64,000 nt of DNA from a phage. Each line of letters starts with the position of its first letter. Position 1 is the stretch's first letter. Below the pieces are notes generated by a model. It saw only the letters and a list, made by a program, of their open reading frames with translations. It did no database searches and had not been told where the DNA came from. Shown piece after piece: positions 3,271 through 41,434 of the stretch. The stretch lies in the sequence record PZ452594.1; one strand, given 5' to 3'. The position numbers were made by a program, and so were the translations under genes.

Positions 3271-4470
3271 TTTTGTAATAATGTCAAACTGTTCTTTAAA
3301 GCAGAAGCTTGAATCTTGATGCTGATACAAAAATTCATACGCTTTTTCTCGCTCACGGTCATAAAGAGCTCGGTCAGATGACAGTTCTTTAATACGCTCG
3401 AATGTTGATTCCATATCATTTTCATCAAACCAAATGATACCGCTATCATGCGAGGTCAAAGGAGTATTATCAACACGGAATTTTAAATTTTCGCCAGTAG
3501 ATTTCCAAAATACCGGAATTGTTCCACATGCACCAAGCTCGAGATGAGTATATTCTAAAGAACGTTGTAGATATTTTTTATCCAACTTACTCAACTGATA
3601 ACCAAATCCGGATTTACTCATGCGTTCAAGCATTTCGCTATTTACATAACGGTCAAGAATTTGCGTTGGCAAATTAGGAGCAATTTTAATTTGGTCTACT
3701 TGATGAAGACGATAATATTCATATGGAATTCCCTTTTCTTTAATAGGAATGAACGCTGGAGAACGTTCCAGACCTTCCATAATAGTACTTAGTCCTGCAG
3801 GTTTAAGATGTTTTTCGTGAAAATCAAACATCTGATAAAAACCTTTCCATGTAGTCGTACGACCAATCCAACGGTTAACATTCATGTTAATTTCAGAAAC
3901 ATCTTTCCAGTATGTTGATCGAACCTTCGCAATATCCATAGGAGGCTGAAAGTTGTATACGGTCGGTGCTTCTTCAATATCATCAAACAGAGAAACTGTT
4001 TCTGGATACCATTCTTTCATCAGAACTTTATTAAAATCGCCATTATCAGAATGACTAAAAATAACATCAGCTCGACGAACAGTTTCTTCTAATCCCAAAT
4101 TTCGGCGCAAAGAAAGAGAAGAATGGTCATGTTGATAAACTACAACACGAACCGAAGGTTTAATGTTATCAATAATTTTTTTATAGTTATTAATAGTGTC
4201 TTCTTCAACCGAAGTAGCAGGAACTGAATTGATAATTAGAATATCACAATCATTTACCAGCTTAAGTGTTTTATCGTATTCTTTTGCCAATAAAACCGGA
4301 ATTGAAAATGATTTATAATCATGCGCGCAATTACGAGTAAATGATTTATCTTTAGCATAAACCAAAGTTACTTCATGACCATTTTTAATAAACCAATCAC
4401 GTTGCTCAAGAGAAAATTTAGTTACACCGCAACCTTCAAGACCTCGAGCCATAAAAATACATACTTTCAT
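3268..4470 (-). CDS. a-gt: DNA alpha-glucosyltransferase
   Basis: 400-aa ORF at the T4 a-gt position between 55 and 47; length matches T4 AGT. Confidence 0.75.
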   Translation of the reverse strand: MKVCIFMARGLEGCGVTKFSLEQRDWFIKNGHEVTLVYAKDKSFTRNCAHDYKSFSIPVLLAKEYDKTLKLVNDCDILIINSVPATSVEEDTINNYKKIIDNIKPSVRVVVYQHDHSSLSLRRNLGLEETVRRADVIFSHSDNGDFNKVLMKEWYPETVSLFDDIEEAPTVYNFQPPMDIAKVRSTYWKDVSEINMNVNRWIGRTTTWKGFYQMFDFHEKHLKPAGLSTIMEGLERSPAFIPIKEKGIPYEYYRLHQVDQIKIAPNLPTQILDRYVNSEMLERMSKSGFGYQLSKLDKKYLQRSLEYTHLELGACGTIPVFWKSTGENLKFRVDNTPLTSHDSGIIWFDENDMESTFERIKELSSDRALYDREREKAYEFLYQHQDSSFCFKEQFDIITK

Positions 4471-6042: not shown

Positions 6043-6312
6043 TTATCTAAGTAAACAGTATGCTTGGAACACTTTCTCCATCATCTTTTTAAATTCATGA
6101 ATATCTATATAATGACTAGTTAAATCAGCATGATATAAAAAGTCTAAAAACTTTTCATGTGTGCTAACATATTCACTTTCATTTAATTCAGAAACATGAC
6201 TTTCCCAATATCCAACACCAGTCTTATTTGGGAAAAATGAAATTTTCATGTATTGGTCAACATAGAAAATGCCATAATTTTCAATAGTAATAGAAATATT
6301 AATAAATTTCAT
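6043..6312 (-). CDS. Hypothetical protein (89 aa)
   Basis: ORF. Confidence 0.45.
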   Translation of the reverse strand: MKFINISITIENYGIFYVDQYMKISFFPNKTGVGYWESHVSELNESEYVSTHEKFLDFLYHADLTSHYIDIHEFKKMMEKVFQAYCLLR

Positions 6313-6524
6313 ACATTCATCAACTTAGCCGCTTCAAGAGCTGCATCTAGTGAATCAAATTGATCAACATATTCAATCAATTCGCCGTAATTGGCATATA
6401 ACCACCATTGGCTAAATTCATACTCAAGGATGAATCCGTTTCCTTCAATTTGAGTTAAACCAATGCCATTTGTATTTACTTCATATCCAGCAAGACGCAA
6501 ATCGTTAATAAGAGCTTCGTTCAT
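6309..6524 (-). CDS. Hypothetical protein (71 aa)
   Basis: ORF, 4-nt overlap with neighbour. Confidence 0.45.
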   Translation of the reverse strand: MNEALINDLRLAGYEVNTNGIGLTQIEGNGFILEYEFSQWWLYANYGELIEYVDQFDSLDAALEAAKLMNV

Positions 6525-6526
6525 AA

Positions 6527-6853
6527 TTATACCTTAGTAATTTTCAGGTCTGCAAATTTTTTCTTGCGTTGATTTTTCATGCGACGAATAGTTTTATCGG
6601 AAATTTCATGCTTTTGATAAGCTTTAGATTCTACACCAAAAGCTTTAACATCAAATTCTGACAAGATATATTGAACCAACAATTCACGGACAGTATTGCG
6701 TCCAATCTTCTGATCATTCTGTTTCATCGTCTGATGAAGCTCTTTTTCCCATTTATCCAAACTTTGAGGAGTTACAATATCGCCTTTTTCTAGCAAAGAA
6801 ACTACTTTATCATATGCGTAAGAATTAATGACGTTTTTAATTTGAATAGTCAT
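6527..6853 (-). CDS. Hypothetical protein (108 aa)
   Basis: ORF. Confidence 0.5.
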   Translation of the reverse strand: MTIQIKNVINSYAYDKVVSLLEKGDIVTPQSLDKWEKELHQTMKQNDQKIGRNTVRELLVQYILSEFDVKAFGVESKAYQKHEISDKTIRRMKNQRKKKFADLKITKV

Positions 6854-21747: not shown

Positions 21748-22269
21748 TTATACTTTCATTGAAGGTGTAACAGTTGTTAAATACTTAATCATAGCTTCAG
21801 CTTCTGATTTTGATAATGAAATTTCTCCACTGTTTTGACGAATAGAAATAAAATCCGGATGACGGTCACCACCAGCTTTTAAAACACACATATAAGTATC
21901 AACTTCGCCTTCAATATTTGAAATGATTGAAGCAGTTCCACATGAATGCGGTTTTTGATAAATCAACACAGCTTTTCTTCCGCCATTTGACTGTTCATAG
22001 GCTTTTAATACATCAAACAAATCAGTTCTTTTATCAATAGCTAAAATGTTATTTTCATCTTCAATGTTAAATCCTTCGGATACTTCATAAAGTGTTACCC
22101 ATAAATCACCAATGTCAATAACAGCATTTACTTTTCCACGGCTTTCAAGAGTATGACAAATTTTCTTGATTTCGTCATAACTCATTTTAATAATATCATC
22201 TCCTTGACTAAGAAAGATGTCATTTTTAAATTCAACACGAATTAAACCGCTTTCACTTGAAATAAACAT
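21748..22269 (-). CDS. Hypothetical protein (173 aa); paralog of 22276-22818
   Basis: Shared C-terminal motif (SKSEAEAMIKYLTTVTPSM vs TKDEAIALKTYLDSVIPTM). Confidence 0.5.
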   Translation of the reverse strand: MFISSESGLIRVEFKNDIFLSQGDDIIKMSYDEIKKICHTLESRGKVNAVIDIGDLWVTLYEVSEGFNIEDENNILAIDKRTDLFDVLKAYEQSNGGRKAVLIYQKPHSCGTASIISNIEGEVDTYMCVLKAGGDRHPDFISIRQNSGEISLSKSEAEAMIKYLTTVTPSMKV

Positions 22270-22275
22270 ATTTCC

Positions 22276-22818
22276 TCACTTTGAAATCATAGTTGGAATA
22301 ACAGAATCAAGATAAGTCTTTAGTGCAATAGCTTCGTCTTTGGTAAATGTGACAATATGTGCTCGAGAATCATCAATTTGGCGAACAAGTACGACATCGC
22401 CATCTTCATAAGAAGTCTTGACATCCAAAGTCGTAGTATAATTTGCAGCTACTGGATTAATAATGCTAGCACCGCGATCTTTAGCCCATTGAAGTTTAGC
22501 CTTTTCGGGTGTTTCGACTGTTTCAGATTCCAAGAATTCTTTCACCTTGGCAACGAATGTTGCCCAATTGTTGATAGAAAGACACATAAATTCAGTTTCA
22601 ATATTACCGCCGTAAAGGCCACGATAAAAACGAACTTGGAGGTCGCCTGTAATATTAGTTACACCGGTAACTCCTGAGGGAGCATAAGATAAAATCGCAG
22701 CCAGTTCCATAGGAAGAATAGTAATACTATCGTCTTCCTGCGTCAGAACGTATACATTATCACGTTTTTCGATAACCAGGTCACCGAACAAATCAGTTGT
22801 TTCAATTACAGCTTTCAT
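22276..22818 (-). CDS. Hypothetical protein (about 180 aa); paralog of 21748-22269
   Basis: ATG at 22816-22818 (track M1 is TTG). Confidence 0.5.
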   Translation of the reverse strand: MKAVIETTDLFGDLVIEKRDNVYVLTQEDDSITILPMELAAILSYAPSGVTGVTNITGDLQVRFYRGLYGGNIETEFMCLSINNWATFVAKVKEFLESETVETPEKAKLQWAKDRGASIINPVAANYTTTLDVKTSYEDGDVVLVRQIDDSRAHIVTFTKDEAIALKTYLDSVIPTMISK

Positions 22819-22819
22819 A

Positions 22820-23005
22820 TTATTTACCAATTAAAGTTTCAATATAAGAATCAAGATTTACTTTAGCTTCTTCCATAAGAGTTTTGTATTTAATCTTGTT
22901 AGCATGTCCGGAGAAAGCTGATTCATCAATAATTGTTGATGTATGAACAGCTCTACTATACGTCTCAATTAATTCTCTTAATTTAAAAGCCTGCTCACTC
23001 GTCAT
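22820..23005 (-). CDS. Small two-helix protein, member of paralogous family (61 aa)
   Basis: M-x-S/T-x-EQ N-terminus and L-x-x-Y-I/L-E-x-L C-terminus shared with 5+ neighbours. Confidence 0.45.
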   Translation of the reverse strand: MTSEQAFKLRELIETYSRAVHTSTIIDESAFSGHANKIKYKTLMEEAKVNLDSYIETLIGK

Positions 23006-23137
23006 TACATACTCCTTTGAATAATATCAATAATGTTATTCACCAAATTATAAGTAAACATTGGGTAATTATATTGAATCATCACATACACAACAAACAA
23101 AACTTTCATTCTCTTCTCCTTGGCAGTTGACAAGATT

Positions 23138-23167
23138 ACTATACCATAACCTTGCCAACTTGTAAAC
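23138..23167 (-). promoter_or_regulatory. T4-type early promoter
   Basis: GTTTAC-N18-TATAGT on minus strand. Confidence 0.5.
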
Positions 23168-23169
23168 CA

Positions 23170-23343
23170 TTAAATGACGTTTTCAATAAAATTCTGAAGC
23201 TTTGTGTGAGCATCAACCATGATTTTCAATTCTTCTTTGGCGAAAGCTATACCTCTTTCCCGAGAAGAACACTCATAGTCAGAAACTGCATTAGCATATT
23301 CTTCAATTAGCTTCATTAAAAACATCTGCTTTTCAGTTTTCAT
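23170..23343 (-). CDS. Small protein (57 aa), probable member of the small paralog family; below ORF-track size cutoff
   Basis: Translated by eye: MKTEKQMFLMKLIEEY...TKLQNFIENVI. Confidence 0.35.
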   Translation of the reverse strand: MKTEKQMFLMKLIEEYANAVSDYECSSRERGIAFAKEELKIMVDAHTKLQNFIENVI

Positions 23344-23527
23344 TATTCCACCTAATCATTTCAAGATATTGAACTAACTTAGCTTTGGATTTATCCAAAT
23401 CCTTTTTAGCTGCTTCTATACCGTCGTATGAATATCCTTCACAATGCTCAACTGCTAATTGGTATGAATCTATTTCAATATCACGTGCTAATTTAATGAT
23501 TTTTTCAAACTGTTCACGTGTTAGCAT
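23333..23527 (-). CDS. Small two-helix protein, paralog family (64 aa)
   Basis: MLTREQFEKIIKL...KLVQYLEMI. Confidence 0.45.
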   Translation of the reverse strand: MLTREQFEKIIKLARDIEIDSYQLAVEHCEGYSYDGIEAAKKDLDKSKAKLVQYLEMIRWNNEN

Positions 23528-23529
23528 AC

Positions 23530-23733
23530 TTAAACTCTCGTATTATGATCGATAATTTCATCAAGAAACATATCTAACGCTTCTAAAGCATTATCAACTT
23601 TAGCTTCAAGTTCATCAATGCCTTTATTTGCAATGCCTGACGAAAACCAAGCAAAGTCACTAAGTTCCTCGTCTGCTTTACGAATTAAAGCTACCAATTC
23701 TTTAATCTTATCCGCTTGTTCGATACTAATCAT
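23530..23733 (-). CDS. Small two-helix protein, paralog family (about 67 aa)
   Basis: Start at [13 protein letters not shown] (TAATG overlap with upstream stop). Confidence 0.4.
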   Translation of the reverse strand: MISIEQADKIKELVALIRKADEELSDFAWFSSGIANKGIDELEAKVDNALEALDMFLDEIIDHNTRV

Positions 23734-23966
23734 TATTCCACCACATATGAAAGAGAGAATATTGCACACGCCATGTGAGTTGCAACTTCATCACACATAT
23801 TATAACGTTTCTTAAGAAGTTCTACAAGTTCTTCACTAGTAACTTCATCCATGTCGACGAAAAAATCACCATTAATGATGACGTAGATATTTCCTTCTTG
23901 ATTGAGTGCTTCAATTTTCATGATGTTCTCCTCTTTATCCGATAGTTGTATAGTATCACAGCTCAA
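23733..23966 (-). CDS. Hypothetical protein (77 aa)
   Basis: ORF downstream of early promoter. Confidence 0.4.
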
Positions 23967-23979
23967 ACGGAAAGTAAAC
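23950..23979 (-). promoter_or_regulatory. T4-type early promoter
   Basis: GTTTAC-N18-TACTAT on minus strand. Confidence 0.5.
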
Positions 23980-23985
23980 CGGTAA

Positions 23986-24012
23986 AATGAAAAAAGTCTC
24001 CCGAAGGAGACT
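23986..24012 (-). terminator. Rho-independent terminator (UUCG hairpin + T tract)
   Basis: AGTCTCC-TTCG-GGAGACT then TTTTTT on minus strand. Confidence 0.6.
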
Positions 24013-24016
24013 AATG

Positions 24017-24403
24017 TTATTCGAGGGAAAGAAGATACTTACTCTGGTAAAACATTCCAGTAATATCATCTATCGTGCTTTGGATGGCTGGAGGCATTTC
24101 TTTATAAATGCTGTTAGATTGGTCTAGTATGCGATCAATCATTTTAATTGTGTCGGTAGGAAGTTTACTGGCATCTGGAATTGAAGGTGTGTATTTTCTA
24201 CCAGAATACCCCAAATATTGCTCACCAAATTTATCAATCAAATCTGGCAACTCGGAGAAAATAAAATCGTATGCTTTATGTCTAGCATAACTTTTAGTTT
24301 CAAAATGTGCAGAATGAAAATAAGCTTGTGCAGCCATTAATAAACCTAAGTATTCATCTGCCTTTGAAGGTTTTCCACTTTGTGAAAAGTCGCTGAATTT
24401 CAT
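24017..24403 (-). CDS. Hypothetical protein (128 aa) downstream of rI
   Basis: ORF; ATGA-type overlap with rI. Confidence 0.5.
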
Positions 24404-24693
24404 TCAGTCTCCAATTTAATGTTCATAATTCTAGCGTATGATTGTGCCATCTCCGCGCCTCGTTCTATACATTCAAAATCAGAAGAGCACGGGTCATTTT
24501 TATAGGTCGTTCTCATAAAACTATAGAATTGTTCAGACGATTCTACGCTTTTATTTTCAAAAAGCATATAAACGTGCCTAATACCAGATTCCATAAATTT
24601 ATCAAAATGAGAATCGACATTCGCTTCAATTGATGGAGATAAAACAAATGACAATCCTAGCATGGCAAAAAGTGCCGTTGCTTTTAAGGCCAT
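24400..24693 (-). CDS. rI: Lysis-inhibition regulator RI (antiholin), signal-anchored periplasmic protein
   Basis: 97 aa, N-terminal signal MALKATALFAMLGLSFVLSPSIEA; matches T4 RI as recalled. Confidence 0.8.
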   Translation of the reverse strand: MALKATALFAMLGLSFVLSPSIEANVDSHFDKFMESGIRHVYMLFENKSVESSEQFYSFMRTTYKNDPCSSDFECIERGAEMAQSYARIMNIKLETE

Positions 24694-24705
24694 AAAGGCC
24701 TCCTA

Positions 24706-24918
24706 TCATTTTTGTCCTGTATTTACTTTATGCCGGTGCACGGCCTTAACTTTATCAAAGTATTTTTCAAAATTTCGCAATCTAGTATAGTCTGCCGGAG
24801 ATTGGTTGAGCGATACTTCTCGACGCAAAGCTGAAATGATATTTCCAACTTCCCTACGAATTTCATCTAATTGAAGAACAGTAAGATTGCGAAGTTGCTT
24901 TTCAGTTAATTGTAGCAT
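24706..24918 (-). CDS. Small protein (70 aa), probable paralog-family member
   Basis: [13 protein letters not shown]-terminus. Confidence 0.45.
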
Positions 24919-24960
24919 ATATACCCCTTTAGTTAGATAAACCTATTTATAACTTTTGCA

Positions 24961-25542
24961 CTAACCAAGCTTTTTAGTTAATTCATTCCAATGTTTTCTA
25001 CACAAAGAAACATAAATTTCATCACCAATACAGATTTGATTACCTTCTTTAACTGGTGTTCCATCTTCCATTAATCGAGCTGTCATAATCGCTTTTTTAC
25101 CGCAATGACAAACTGCTTTTAGTTCAATAAGTTTATCTGCAATCGCTAAAAGTTCTTTAGAACCTTCAAACAATTTTCCAGCGAAATCAGTCCTTAATCC
25201 ATAAGCCATAACAGGAACATTATATGTATCAACAATTCGGCTCAATTGATGCACTTGTTCAGTTTTTAAAAACTGGGCTTCATCTACAAATACGCAATGA
25301 ATATCTTTTTGTGCTTCAGCCCATTTATAGAACTCGAAAATATCCATATCATCTGTGATAATATTCGCTTCCTGTTTAATTCCAATGCGAGAAACGACTT
25401 CACAGACAGAGTCGCGAGTATCAATAGCAGGCTTAAGAACTAATACACTCATTCCACGTTCTTTATAATTATGTGCAGCAGTCAAAAGAGAAGCAGATTT
25501 TCCAGCATTCATTGCTGCATAAGTAAAAATTAAACTCGCCAT
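24961..25542 (-). CDS. tk: Thymidine kinase
   Basis: 193 aa; P-loop AAMNAGKS; zinc-ribbon CHCGKK...C. Confidence 0.95.
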   Translation of the reverse strand: MASLIFTYAAMNAGKSASLLTAAHNYKERGMSVLVLKPAIDTRDSVCEVVSRIGIKQEANIITDDMDIFEFYKWAEAQKDIHCVFVDEAQFLKTEQVHQLSRIVDTYNVPVMAYGLRTDFAGKLFEGSKELLAIADKLIELKAVCHCGKKAIMTARLMEDGTPVKEGNQICIGDEIYVSLCRKHWNELTKKLG

Positions 25543-25543
25543 T

Positions 25544-25732
25544 TTAGTCCTTAGTTAAATTTTCTAAATATGTTTCTAAATCATTTTCAGCTTTATCGAT
25601 AGATTTTACTAATTCGTAATATGTTTCGGCATCTCCATAATCAGAAGATAATTCAAAAGACAAATCCTTTTCTAAACTAATAATTTCACCAACTAAAAAT
25701 AATATTTCGTTCTTTTGTTCGCGAGTAATCAT
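25544..25732 (-). CDS. Small two-helix protein, paralog family (62 aa)
   Basis: MITREQKNEILFL...DLETYLENL. Confidence 0.45.
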   Translation of the reverse strand: MITREQKNEILFLVGEIISLEKDLSFELSSDYGDAETYYELVKSIDKAENDLETYLENLTKD

Positions 25733-25914
25733 AAAGAATTTATATAATCAATGAGTTCTTGTTCTTTATTATCGAATTCTTTAGAAAGTTCTTCGTATTC
25801 ATTTGCATTAAAAGGACCGCATTCATCACAAACTTTTTCCAATTCACTGTTTTTATCCATAACTTCGTGGATAAGAGAAAAGAGTTTGTCTTTTTGTTCT
25901 TTGCTTAAACTCAT
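25729..25914 (-). CDS. Small two-helix protein, paralog family (61 aa)
   Basis: MSLSKEQKDKLFSL...ELIDYINSL. Confidence 0.45.
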   Translation of the reverse strand: MSLSKEQKDKLFSLIHEVMDKNSELEKVCDECGPFNANEYEELSKEFDNKEQELIDYINSL

Positions 25915-26084
25915 ATATTAATTTCCAAAAGTTTTAAAATAATTCGCTTTTGCTTAAATATTTCCACAGTTAAATGATCAGTATCTTTTTGACCAATTCC
26001 AATGGCAAAACCTTTATTAACAGCGAGTTCAATTAAATTATCAAGTTCACGTAACACTTCATATTGTAACTCAGAACTATTCAT
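25911..26084 (-). CDS. Small protein (57 aa), below ORF-track cutoff
   Basis: Translated by eye: MNSSELQYEVLRELDNLIEL...; ATGA coupling at both ends. Confidence 0.35.
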   Translation of the reverse strand: MNSSELQYEVLRELDNLIELAVNKGFAIGIGQKDTDHLTVEIFKQKRIILKLLEINI

Positions 26085-26293: not shown

Positions 26294-26511
26294 GTCACCT
26301 TTAAGCAGTATTCTTCTACATGCTGTTTACGACCTTTCTTATCAATAAAGGTATATTCAACGAATGTTCCAATGTAGTCTTTATCTACATCATGTGGACT
26401 ATTAATTGGACATTTAGTACGGCAAATGCGTTCCCATTGACGAATAATTACTGCCTTATTCTTTGGGTCATACGGATGTGGATAATGTATATTCATAATA
26501 ACGGTTCCCAA
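26284..26511 (-). CDS. Hypothetical protein (75 aa)
   Basis: ORF. Confidence 0.45.
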   Translation of the reverse strand: MGTVIMNIHYPHPYDPKNKAVIIRQWERICRTKCPINSPHDVDKDYIGTFVEYTFIDKKGRKQHVEEYCLKVTWL

Positions 26512-26960
26512 TCAACAATCACAATTTCTAATTTAGAGGAATATGTATCTAAAATCCCCTCAATAATATCCCAGTTCCCTTTACCTATGCCTGCACCAAT
26601 CCTAGGCATATAGATTGTAGGTTTAATCAGTTTATTTTCACCAAACTCATTTAATTCTAACATACAATTCATTAAAGCGGAATACTCAAAATTTGGCCCT
26701 GGTTGAAATTGAGTATAAAGGTTGAAGCAATACGCTTTATGAGTCCTAAAGTATTTTTCATAGACTGAGTAAGAACCGAGTTTAGTTACATCACCCCATT
26801 CAGTCTGTAATTTATCAGCTTCCAAAATTTTAGGGAAAGCTTTGGTTAATTGACCTGCGACTCCAGCTTTCATCGCGTGAAAACAATTACATCCATGCGC
26901 AATATTTTTACCTTCAGCGAAAAGGGCGACAATATCGCCCTTGATATATTTTACAATCAT
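26493..26960 (-). CDS. Macro-domain-like protein (candidate ADP-ribose binding/hydrolase)
   Basis: KGDIVALFAEGKNIAHGCNCFHAMKAGVAGQL and MPRIGAGIGKG resemble macro-domain motifs; by-eye only. Confidence 0.35.
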   Translation of the reverse strand: MIVKYIKGDIVALFAEGKNIAHGCNCFHAMKAGVAGQLTKAFPKILEADKLQTEWGDVTKLGSYSVYEKYFRTHKAYCFNLYTQFQPGPNFEYSALMNCMLELNEFGENKLIKPTIYMPRIGAGIGKGNWDIIEGILDTYSSKLEIVIVDWEPLL

Positions 26961-39455: not shown

Positions 39456-39641
39456 TTATTCACCTTTAGAAATTTTATCCATAACGATAGCGATTAAACC
39501 AATTAAAAATGCTACTACAAGCGAAAACACATTTTCTGCTGTAGTTAATAATCCGCATATAAATCCAACAAACATTGAAAAACTAAAAGCGGAAGCAGAA
39601 ATTGCAATAGCAACATTTCGAATTAATTCACAACGTTTCAT
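39456..39641 (-). CDS. Small membrane protein (61 aa)
   Basis: Two hydrophobic helices; early promoter upstream. Confidence 0.4.
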   Translation of the reverse strand: MKRCELIRNVAIAISASAFSFSMFVGFICGLLTTAENVFSLVVAFLIGLIAIVMDKISKGE

Positions 39642-39660
39642 TTTATTCTCCTCGGTAGTT

Positions 39661-39690
39661 GATAGGGTAATAGTATCACTACCCTATCTA
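39661..39690 (-). promoter_or_regulatory. T4-type early promoter
   Basis: GTTTAC-N18-TACTAT; 23-bp block TGATAGGGTAATAGTATCACTAC repeated at 39959-39981. Confidence 0.5.
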
Positions 39691-40011: not shown

Positions 40012-40708
<697 letters not shown>

Positions 40709-40709
<1 letters not shown>

Positions 40710-41434
40710 TATAGTACCTTTAGTGTATTTTTAATTTTAGAAAAAAGTTCTTCAAGAGAACCATCGTTTGTAATTACTAAATCGCCATCACGAATTGGCA
40801 ATCCAGCTTCTGTAATATGTGTATCATTGGATTTTTGACCAGGACGAACTACATGAATTACTGTAGCACCCATCGCCCTAGCCGCATCCATTTCATGATC
40901 TTGACGAGTATCAGGAACGATATAATAATCATAACCTGAGTTAAATTTATCAAGATAATCTAAAGCAAATAATTTTACCCAGTACATGCGGTCGAAGTTA
41001 TTAACAATCAAATCCGTACCTAGGGCTTGCATCAGACGACGGACTGACCATTGATCTTCAATATTATTTATAACGTCAATAATCTTGTTAAATGCTACGG
41101 AATTAACTGATTCTTGTCCTTCGTCATCAAAAACAAACACACCCTTAATTGGGCTTTTACCGTTAAGATAGCAAAATGCTTGTTCCATAATCGTGATTAC
41201 TTCTGATTTAGTCAGATTTAAATTAGTCTCACGATCATAGTCAATTCCTTCAAACTCTTTACGAGTTAAGCAAGGATAGTCAGTGTTTTCTGCAAATACG
41301 CCCCATGCATAAGCCAATGCATCCTTAATAGGACCAGCAAGTTGGTATTTAACTGCAGAATAATTGCTCATGATAAAATCAGCAGTAGTATCTTTTCCAC
41401 TACGCTTTACACCGCTTAAAAAGATTAGTTTCAT
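40709..41434 (-). CDS. 1: Deoxynucleoside monophosphate kinase (gene 1)
   Basis: 241 aa from MKLIFLSG; P-loop GVKRSGKDT. Confidence 0.9.

What the first reader, a model, noticed from the sequence alone, without database searches (positions are those of the whole stretch)
22820..26084. Expanded family of at least six paralogous 57-70-aa two-helix proteins flanking rI and tk
Seen: small ORFs at 22820-23005, 23170-23343, 23333-23527, 23530-23733, 25544-25732, 25729-25914 (and probably 24706-24918) share an N-terminal M-x-T/S-x-E-Q-x-x-K-I/L...L motif and a C-terminal D/E-L-x-x-Y-L/I-E-x-L motif, about 60 aa apart. Most are chained by ATGA/TAATG start-stop overlaps, arguing for real translation. 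Inference: a multi-copy small-protein family diversified by duplication; such families in phages are often host-takeover or anti-defense factors.
Basis: seen in the sequence. Interest (0 to 1): 0.55.

Follow-up and report, generated by a model that had tools for sequence, protein, structure and literature searches.

The report
Six-copy small helical-hairpin phage family (DUF7438)
This T4-like phage carries six diverged copies of a roughly 60-residue two-helix protein that Pfam already lists as DUF7438; they are real, early-made and dispensable in the laboratory, and their function is still unknown.

Summary
The window is a Tequatrovirus, 98.4% identical to RB18. The six ORFs are RB18ORF101, mobD.2a, mobD.3, mobD.4, tk.1 and tk.2. 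All six match Pfam PF24219 (DUF7438) end to end at 50-69 bits against a 25-bit cutoff. In leave-one-orthogroup-out HMM tests, each is the top hit among 704 six-frame segments of the window. Each also beats 2000 composition-preserving shuffles, except mobD.2a, which one shuffle reached. AlphaFold2 gives confident alpha-hairpins for Tk.2 and ORF101 (pLDDT 91-93).

rI.1 (24706-24918) is not a member. The family is therefore real but already catalogued in Pfam and PHROGs, with no known function.

Published T4 data show MobD.3, MobD.4, Tk.1 and Tk.2 detected by mass spectrometry as early or middle proteins. Knockdown of each gene has no fitness effect in a laboratory host.

Copy number ranges from 1-2 (Moonvirus, Kanagawavirus) to 6 (this phage). 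I also saw a pseudogene, allele swaps and paralogue chimeras. dN/dS is about 0.1-0.4, and most members are acidic.

My best guess, held at low confidence, is that they are diversified and partly redundant early binders of host or defence proteins. This is ordinary for T-even accessory regions, so I score interest low to moderate.

The parts
22820..23005 (-). RB18ORF101 homologue, 61 aa; DUF7438 member (phrog_4859, mislabelled 'helicase loader')
   Evidence: Pfam PF24219 56.9 bits, E 2.6e-15. Leave-one-out top hit at E 2.9e-3; 0 of 2000 shuffles reach the real score. AlphaFold2 hairpin H3-28/H34-60, pLDDT 90.9. Its start overlaps the mobD.2 stop as TAATG. Absent from T4.
23170..23343 (-). mobD.2a, 57 aa; DUF7438 member (phrog_2758)
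   Evidence: Pfam 50.2 bits, E 3.4e-13. Leave-one-out top hit at E 1.4e-3; 1 of 2000 shuffles reaches the real score. hhalign to the ORF101 orthogroup E 1e-4. Overlaps mobD.3 by 11 nt, with an AGGTGG Shine-Dalgarno sequence. Intact here but frameshifted in T4.
23333..23527 (-). mobD.3, 64 aa; DUF7438 member (phrog_653)
   Evidence: Pfam 64.1 bits, E 1.5e-17. Leave-one-out E 2.1e-5. The T4 orthologue is classed early RNA / early protein in proteomics (PMC9697503 supplements). No fitness effect in CRISPRi-ART.
23530..23733 (-). mobD.4, 67 aa; DUF7438 member (phrog_653); net charge -9
   Evidence: Pfam 57 bits, E 2.5e-15. Leave-one-out E 7.8e-5. TAATG overlap with the mobD.5 stop. Loop-length and allele polymorphism: 60 aa in T4 and KIT03, 67 aa here; dS up to 0.66 against about 0.03-0.1 for most flanking genes and up to 0.24 for rI. 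The T4 orthologue is an early protein.
25544..25732 (-). tk.1, 62 aa; DUF7438 member (phrog_653); net charge -10; immediately upstream of tk
   Evidence: Pfam 56.2 bits, E 4.6e-15. Leave-one-out E 1.8e-6. hhalign to Tk.2 E 1.3e-6, probability 91%. ATGA overlap with tk.2. The T4 orthologue is classed early RNA / middle protein.
25729..25914 (-). tk.2, 61 aa; DUF7438 member (phrog_653); net charge -9
   Evidence: Pfam 68.8 bits, E 5.3e-19. AlphaFold2 hairpin H5-30/H37-60, pLDDT 92.6. ATGA overlap with the ORF109c stop. A divergent allele (54-56% identity) sits in KIT03 and PE37 next to a 99-100% identical tk.
23950..23979 (-). T4-type early promoter upstream of mobD.5, driving mobD.5-mobD.4-mobD.3-mobD.2a (GTTTAC, spacer, TG-n-TACTAT)
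   Evidence: Read directly from the sequence. In T4 the mobD.5 promoter was mapped by primer extension, and its transcript is present 3 min after infection (PMC1702504). The assignment in this window rests on sequence similarity, so it is an inference.
23995..24012 (-). Intrinsic terminator-like hairpin after rI.-1, separating the rI unit from the mobD.5 unit
   Evidence: Terminator scan: 7-bp stem with 4 G-C pairs, followed by TTTTTTCATTT.
23138..23166 (-). Promoter-like site (TTTACA, 17 nt, TATAGT with upstream TG) ahead of mobD.2-ORF101-mobD.1
   Evidence: Consensus scan, 10 of 12 matches with extended -10. This is a consensus match only. The region holds no more such sites than shuffled sequence does (27 found, 26.5 expected).

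Best explanation
Shown. The six ORFs are genuine, translated paralogues of the phage family Pfam DUF7438 (PHROGs 653, 2758 and 4859). Each is a single alpha-helical hairpin of about 60 residues. The conserved positions are the a/d hydrophobic core plus an N-terminal T-x-E-Q that reads as a helix cap. Surface and loop residues vary freely. The genes lie in two early transcription units: mobD.5 to mobD.2a plus mobD.2 to ORF101 on one side of rI, and the tk.4 to tk unit on the other. The family arose by tandem duplication and is continually remodelled by loss, frameshift, allele replacement and paralogue recombination.

Inferred, at low confidence. The proteins are made in the first minutes of infection. 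They probably pair into Rop-like four-helix bundles and act stoichiometrically as small, mostly acidic binders. Their likely targets are host proteins, plausibly nucleic-acid-binding or defence proteins. Different paralogues may have different or overlapping targets, which would explain why single knockdowns show nothing in a laboratory host.

Split of confidence: about 0.95 that this is a real DUF7438 paralogue family, and about 0.35 that its role is host-takeover or counter-defence binding.
For: Homology:
- Pfam scores of 50-69 bits for all six.
- Leave-one-out rank 1 of 704 for each gene.
- Shuffle control.
- hhalign links within and between the two subclusters.

Fold:
- AlphaFold2 hairpins at pLDDT 92.6 and 90.9.

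Expression:
- T4 MobD.3 and MobD.4 are early proteins; Tk.1 and Tk.2 are middle proteins made from early RNA.
- The T4 mobD.5 promoter is mapped experimentally.
- Genes are translationally chained.

Selection:
- dN/dS of 0.06-0.45, similar to rI, rI.1 and mobD.1.

Accessory character:
- The nrdC.11-mobD.3 block is deletable in T4.
- All five T4 copies are 'Not Fit' in CRISPRi-ART.
- Copy number runs from 1-2 to 6 across genera.
- mobD.4 and tk.2 alleles are far more divergent than their flanking genes.
- Chimeras exist.

Other properties:
- Median pI is 4.4; three window copies carry net charge -9 or -10.
- Conserved columns are the core plus the helix cap only.
- For mobD.4, tk.2 and mobD.2a the middle of the protein varies more than the ends.
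- Neighbours tk.4 (AdfM, anti-DarTG2) and nrdC.1 (anti-Septu) are proven counter-defence genes.
- The family also occurs in unrelated high-GC phage contigs, inside arrays of small ORFs, sometimes in two copies.
Against: - No target, interaction or phenotype is known for any member.
- There are no hits in NCBIfam or PADLOC.
- The main text of the T4 transposon screen on defence-expressing and clinical hosts does not name mobD.x, tk.1 or tk.2 among its hits.
- Three of the six copies are only mildly acidic, with net charge -1 to -3.
- The 'variable tip' pattern is absent in ORF101, mobD.3 and tk.1.
- Dimerisation was not modelled.
- Guilt by association is weak in T-even genomes, where hundreds of early genes are contiguous.
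Confidence: 0.4

Rival explanations
1. Phage-internal adaptor. The tk-adjacent copies, and by descent the others, would be small subunits or regulators of phage nucleotide-metabolism enzymes such as thymidine kinase or the dNTP-synthetase complex, rather than host-directed factors.
For: A DUF7438 gene sits just upstream of tk in Tequatrovirus, Mosigvirus and Kanagawavirus, and in Moonvirus with only a seg endonuclease inserted between them. The tk.1 stop and the tk start are 1 nt apart. In an unrelated 62.7-kb phage contig the single copy lies two genes upstream of a dCMP-deaminase-family gene.
Against: The four mobD-side copies are not next to nucleotide-metabolism genes. Other non-T4 contexts show only unannotated small ORFs. 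phiD1, PE37 and KIT03 lack tk.1 altogether and keep only a divergent tk.2 allele beside a conserved tk. T-even genomes are broadly syntenic, so adjacency carries little information. tk itself is dispensable in the laboratory host (tk is 'Not Fit' in CRISPRi-ART).
Confidence: 0.12
2. Nearly neutral, decaying duplicates. Under this reading the copies are expressed passengers of a hyperplastic region with no function of their own.
For: Single knockdowns have no fitness effect. Part of the block is deletable. T4 mobD.2a is frameshifted, ORF101 and tk.1 are missing from many relatives, and copy number is unstable.
Against: dN/dS is well below 1 wherever there are enough substitutions. Members stay intact across at least four Tevenvirinae genera and in unrelated high-GC phages. 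Four T4 proteins were detected by mass spectrometry. The reading frames are tightly coupled.
Confidence: 0.1
3. Rop-like nucleic-acid binders. Homodimeric hairpins would form a four-helix bundle that binds RNA or DNA structures and regulates phage or host gene expression.
Confidence: 0.05
4. Not a family. The shared motifs would reflect coiled-coil composition and AT-rich codon bias rather than common descent.
For: Pairwise identity is only 20-33%, and most pairwise BLASTP comparisons are not significant. Several hhalign orthogroup pairs are weak.
Against: Leave-one-out HMMs pick out only the omitted gene among 704 compositionally matched segments, which include many other small helical ORFs. 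Shuffles do not reproduce the scores. Alignments are collinear from residue 1 to the C-terminus, and lengths are equal. An independent curated Pfam model scores all six at 2-2.7 times its cutoff.
Confidence: 0.02

Closest known systems
Pfam PF24219 (DUF7438); PHROGs phrog_653, phrog_2758, phrog_4859; T4 genes mobD.2a, mobD.3, mobD.4, tk.1, tk.2
   Same: The six ORFs are members. They give full-length matches above the curated cutoff, and they are 85-100% identical to the T4 and RB18 orthologues.
   Different: Nothing structural differs. This phage keeps six intact copies, whereas T4 has four plus a frameshifted mobD.2a and lacks ORF101. PHROGs splits the family into three groups that Pfam joins into one.
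Rop/Rom of ColE1 plasmids (63-aa hairpin, homodimeric four-helix bundle that binds RNA kissing complexes)
   Different: There is no detectable sequence relationship. DUF7438 is acidic and lacks Rop's RNA-binding surface. Dimerisation was not tested. This is a resemblance of form only.
Small acidic early phage inhibitors of host proteins (T7 Ocr and Gp5.9, T4 Arn, many anti-CRISPRs); named from general knowledge as a functional analogy
   Same: They are small, acidic, early, dispensable in laboratory hosts, vary between related phages and are encoded among other counter-defence genes.
   Different: There is no sequence or fold similarity to any of them. No target is known. Half of the copies are only weakly acidic.
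T4 gp59 helicase loader and bacterial Mob (molybdopterin-guanine dinucleotide biosynthesis) proteins: names attached to these genes in RefSeq and PHROGs
   Same: Only the label is shared.
   Different: The real gp59 is a 217-aa protein encoded elsewhere in the genome (RB18 145333-145986). The 'MobD' name comes from the neighbouring mobD homing-endonuclease gene, not from molybdenum-cofactor synthesis. No Pfam or NCBIfam match supports either name.

Membership tests
Pfam DUF7438 (PF24219) | Whole-protein score above the curated gathering cutoff (25 bits) over the full 57-position model | tested here: met
   The six ORFs score 50.2-68.8 bits and cover model positions 1-56/57. rI.1, RB32ORF109c, mobD.5 and mobD.2 give no DUF7438 hit.
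Pfam DUF7438 (PF24219) | Single-domain protein of about 55-70 aa that folds as one alpha-helical hairpin | tested here: met
   Lengths are 57-67 aa. AlphaFold2 gives two helices for Tk.2 (H5-30/H37-60, pLDDT 92.6) and for ORF101 (H3-28/H34-60, pLDDT 90.9). The other four were not modelled.
Pfam DUF7438 (PF24219) | N-terminal M-[IL]-T-x-E-Q...L[IV] and C-terminal L..[YF][IL]..[IL] signature | tested here: met
   Column statistics on 45 family sequences and alignments A1 and A2.
Pfam DUF7438, candidate seventh member rI.1 (24706-24918) | Any significant profile match to the family | tested here: not met
   No Pfam hit. It belongs to phrog_1826, not 653, 2758 or 4859. The six-member HMM gives E 6.2. 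hhalign probability is 0.5%. Its pI is 10.2 against a family median of 4.4.
Rop/Rom family | Sequence homology to Rop | tested here: not met
   hhalign of the 39-sequence family profile against ColE1 Rop gives probability 0.1% and E 0.49.
Rop/Rom family | Antiparallel homodimer forming a four-helix bundle that binds RNA | not testable with these tools
   Only monomers could be predicted. The fold resemblance is generic.
T4 gp59-type helicase loader (label on ORF101 / phrog_4859) | Two-domain protein of about 217 aa homologous to gp59 | tested here: not met
   ORF101 is 61 aa and matches only DUF7438 in Pfam. The genuine gp59 is annotated elsewhere in RB18.
Known anti-defence proteins / defence-system components | Sequence or structural match to a characterised inhibitor or defence protein | tested here: not met
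   PADLOC gives no meaningful hits. A PDB sequence-profile search gives nothing below E 0.03. Foldseek against PDB and BFVD returns only uncharacterised T4-like relatives or generic hairpins. No dedicated anti-defence library was available.
Known anti-defence proteins / defence-system components | Host-dependent or defence-dependent phenotype | not testable with these tools
   The literature gives no effect in a laboratory host, and these genes are not named among hits in the main text of the HIDEN-SEQ preprint. I did not examine that paper's supplementary tables.

The most novel reading that the evidence does not exclude
DUF7438 may be a phage-encoded scaffold for mini-binders. The hairpin base stays conserved while the surface and tip vary freely. 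T-even phages would keep an array of 2-6 such binders that neutralise different, or overlapping, host defence or nucleic-acid-binding proteins. Redundancy among paralogues would explain why every single-gene screen so far has scored them as dispensable.
Probability: 0.25. Interest if true: 0.6.

Novelty: already known. Interest (0 to 1): 0.27.

Why it matters
The finding adds no new kind of element. The genes have long been annotated in T4, and the family is already catalogued as Pfam DUF7438 and in PHROGs. Its value is practical.

- It shows that six 'hypothetical' genes, two of them mislabelled 'helicase loader' and 'MobD molybdopterin' in related records, are one family of early hairpin proteins.
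- Four T4 orthologues are detected by mass spectrometry, the genes are under purifying selection, and their number varies between close relatives.
- They sit in the same early cluster as proven counter-defence genes.

That makes them a reasonable target for a multi-copy deletion. Single-gene screens cannot reveal a function if the paralogues are redundant.

Tried and rejected
- Pairwise BLASTP among the ORFs was mostly non-significant, so I moved to profile methods.
- A search for further members in the window gave only weak hits at 39459-39683, 40470-40730 and 6312-6533 (E 0.14 or worse). I rejected these.
- rI.1, RB32ORF109c, mobD.5 and mobD.2 were rejected as members.
- Domain fusions were uninformative. 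P0053, P0084, P0139, P0141 and P0149 show only DUF7438 or tandem repeats of it. P0129 and P0142 are spurious coiled-coil or HTH repeat hits.
- The Rop relationship was rejected at sequence level.
- The search for related loci on the broad alignment failed because no stretch was conserved enough. I used tblastn and exact-protein look-ups instead.
- Literature searches for DUF7438, mobD.x and tk.1/tk.2 found no functional study. The T4 genome review PMC150520 is not held.
- The toxic early protein Emp of Mosigvirus AV110 is a different, 109-aa protein next to motA.


Full report
**What the window is.** The region is 98.4% identical to Enterobacteria phage RB18, a Tequatrovirus, and 633 phage records match it.

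| Window coordinates (minus strand) | Gene |
|---|---|
| 22820-23005 | RB18ORF101 |
| 23170-23343 | mobD.2a |
| 23333-23527 | mobD.3 |
| 23530-23733 | mobD.4 |
| 24706-24918 | rI.1 |
| 25544-25732 | tk.1 |
| 25729-25914 | tk.2 |

RB32ORF109c lies at 25911-26084. All are on the minus strand, within the long leftward early region.

**Is the family real?** All six listed ORFs match one curated Pfam model, PF24219 (DUF7438). The matches run end to end at 50.2-68.8 bits against a 25-bit cutoff. rI.1, ORF109c, mobD.5 and mobD.2 do not match.

PHROGs splits the six into three groups, linked by weak cross-hits:
- phrog_653: mobD.3, mobD.4, tk.1 and tk.2
- phrog_2758: mobD.2a
- phrog_4859: ORF101

Pfam may have been built from these very genes, so I tested homology independently.
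- Pairwise identity is only 20-33%, and BLASTP is mostly non-significant.
- I built an HMM from five orthogroups and searched all 704 six-frame segments of at least 35 aa in the window. The omitted sixth gene was always the top hit, at E 2e-6 to 3e-3, and the next best segment was at E 0.33 or worse.
- Composition-preserving shuffles of the omitted protein reached its score in 0 of 2000 trials for five genes and 1 of 2000 for mobD.2a.
- hhalign between orthogroup alignments gives Tk.1-Tk.2 E 1.3e-6, MobD.3-MobD.4 E 2e-5, MobD.3 or MobD.4 to Tk.1 E 1e-4, and ORF101-MobD.2a E 1e-4. The two subclusters are joined more weakly.

An expanded 48-sequence HMM finds exactly six members in the 64 kb. 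rI.1 fails every test and is basic rather than acidic.

**Anatomy.** AlphaFold2 predicts a single alpha-hairpin for Tk.2 (H5-30/H37-60, pLDDT 92.6) and for the most divergent copy, ORF101 (H3-28/H34-60, pLDDT 90.9).

Across 45 family sequences, the conserved columns are of two kinds:
- the a/d hydrophobic positions of both helices
- the N-terminal T-x-E-Q, with E at 91% and Q at 87%, which I read as a helix cap (an inference)

No other polar position is conserved. The family is acidic, with median pI 4.4. Tk.1, Tk.2 and MobD.4 carry net charge -9 to -10, while the other three carry -1 to -3.

Gene junctions are tight:
- TAATG at mobD.5/mobD.4 and mobD.2/ORF101
- ATGA at ORF109c/tk.2 and tk.2/tk.1
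- an 11-nt overlap at mobD.3/mobD.2a
- 1-2 nt gaps at the remaining junctions

A terminator-like hairpin at 24012-23995 follows rI.-1. After it comes a T4-type early promoter, GTTTAC...TG-n-TACTAT at 23979-23950, upstream of mobD.5. In T4 that promoter is mapped, and its transcript is present at 3 min (PMC1702504). A second promoter-like site precedes mobD.2 at 23166-23138.

**Expression and dispensability (T4 literature).**
- In the time-resolved T4 transcriptome and proteome, MobD.3 and MobD.4 are classed 'early RNA / early protein'. Tk.1 and Tk.2 are classed 'early RNA / middle protein', so all four were detected as proteins. The truncated mobD.2a has no protein class (PMC9697503 supplements).
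- In CRISPRi-ART, mobD.2a, mobD.3, mobD.4, tk.1 and tk.2 are all 'Not Fit' (PMC11879866 supplement).
- An nrdC.11-mobD.3 block is deletable in T4 (PMC9825161).

**Evolution.** A profile search of 5.8 billion proteins returned 115 clusters. Every one is an orthologue of one of the six, and all come from T4-like phages. An exhaustive HMM search of 1.84 billion representatives found only 45 clusters at 50% identity, nearly all 57-67 aa.

Copy number in the syntenic nrdC.11 to vs region:

| Phage or genus | Copies |
|---|---|
| This window, RB18 | 6 |
| phiD1, PE37 | 5 |
| KIT03 | 4 |
| T4 | 4, plus mobD.2a split by a frameshift |
| Mosigvirus | 2-4 |
| Moonvirus, Kanagawavirus | 1 clear copy next to tk, plus 1 borderline |

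- phiD1, PE37 and KIT03 lack tk.1 and carry a tk.2 allele only 54-56% identical to the window's. The adjacent tk is 99-100% identical.
- mobD.4 alleles differ in loop length (60 against 67 aa) and reach dS of 0.5-0.66, against about 0.03-0.1 for most neighbouring genes and up to 0.24 for rI.
- Clusters P0021 and P0090 are Tk.2(N)-Tk.1(C) chimeras.
- Pairwise dN/dS is 0.06-0.45. Counts are small. These values resemble rI, rI.1 and mobD.1 and are higher than tk at 0.02-0.07.
- Variation concentrates in the middle of the protein for mobD.4, tk.2 and mobD.2a, but not for the other three.
- Rare members occur in non-T4 phage contigs of 41-64% GC. One lies in a 62.7-kb contig with PolA, an integrase and a dCMP-deaminase-family gene. 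Another contig carries two copies.

**Function.** Nothing of known function matches.
- PDB sequence profile: best E 0.029, a kinetochore coiled coil.
- NCBIfam and PADLOC: nothing.
- Foldseek against PDB: E 0.8 or worse. Hits are FrmR/CsoR, ZraP and Rop.
- Foldseek against BFVD: only uncharacterised T4-like relatives.
- Rop is unrelated by sequence.
- No informative domain fusions exist.

I found no paper on the family. A recent T4 transposon screen shows that neighbouring genes of the same early cluster are counter-defence factors: tk.4 is AdfM (anti-DarTG2) and nrdC.1 is anti-Septu. Its main text does not mention mobD.x, tk.1 or tk.2.

**Interpretation.**
- Shown: this is a real paralogous family of hairpin proteins under purifying selection. 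The T4 orthologues are made early, four are detected by mass spectrometry, and all are individually dispensable. The family is evolutionarily unstable.
- Inferred: the proteins work by binding rather than catalysis, because only core and cap residues are conserved. They probably act as dimers by analogy with Rop. They most likely target host proteins as accessory takeover or counter-defence factors, with redundancy masking single-gene phenotypes. I put this at roughly 0.35.
- Rivals: a phage-internal adaptor for Tk or nucleotide metabolism (0.12), neutral passengers (0.10), Rop-like nucleic-acid binders (0.05) and chance similarity (0.02). The remaining probability is unassigned.

**Novelty and score.** The family is already in Pfam and PHROGs, and the genes are standard T4 annotations. 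It is typical of T-even hyperplastic regions, so interest is low to moderate.

Noticed in passing
window 21748-22269 (-) and 22276-22818 (-): RB32ORF097c and mobD.1, directly downstream of the DUF7438 cluster, are a tandem paralogue pair. BLASTP gives 29% identity over 173 aa at E 2e-8, and they share a C-terminal ...EA.A...YL..V.P.M motif. In this phage they occupy the place where T4 has the mobD homing endonuclease.
   Followed up: partly
L015 43435-43665 (-) = RB18 pseT.1, outside the window: PseT.1 (76 aa) is the only other hit of the DUF7438 HMM in the rest of the RB18 genome, at E 4.6e-4 among 1774 segments. It has MIS..Q...L..LI and DLHDYIQSL at its ends, but no Pfam hit. It may be a seventh, divergent member with a longer loop.
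   Followed up: partly
protein clusters P0021, P0090: Some phages encode a single protein whose N-terminal half is Tk.2 and whose C-terminal half is Tk.1. This is evidence of unequal recombination between the adjacent paralogues.
   Followed up: partly
L003 (T4) 3997-4178 (-): T4 mobD.2a, annotated as 38 aa, is a frameshifted copy. The N-terminal and C-terminal halves of the full-length protein are both present, in two different frames.
   Followed up: yes
L005 (phage ATK48) 8986-9183 (+): An unannotated DUF7438 gene (Pfam 35.9 bits) lies between the annotated tk.2-like gene and tk.
   Followed up: yes
RefSeq and PHROGs annotation of window 22820-23005 and 23530-23733 homologues: ORF101 homologues are labelled 'helicase loader' (phrog_4859). 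MobD.1, MobD.4 and MobD.5 homologues are labelled 'molybdopterin-guanine dinucleotide biosynthesis protein MobD'. Neither name has any support, and the second comes from confusing gene names.
   Followed up: yes
window 24706-24918 (-), rI.1: rI.1 is a conserved, basic (pI 10.2) 70-aa protein that also begins M-L-Q-L-T-E-K-Q-L. It is unrelated to DUF7438 by profile. One GenBank annotator flagged a ribosomal-protein-L29-like domain in its Klebsiella-phage homologue.
   Followed up: partly
window 26493-26960 (-), tk.4: This macro-domain gene, four genes upstream of tk.2 in the same unit, is the orthologue of T4 tk.4. A 2025 preprint names it AdfM, an anti-DarTG2 factor.
   Followed up: no
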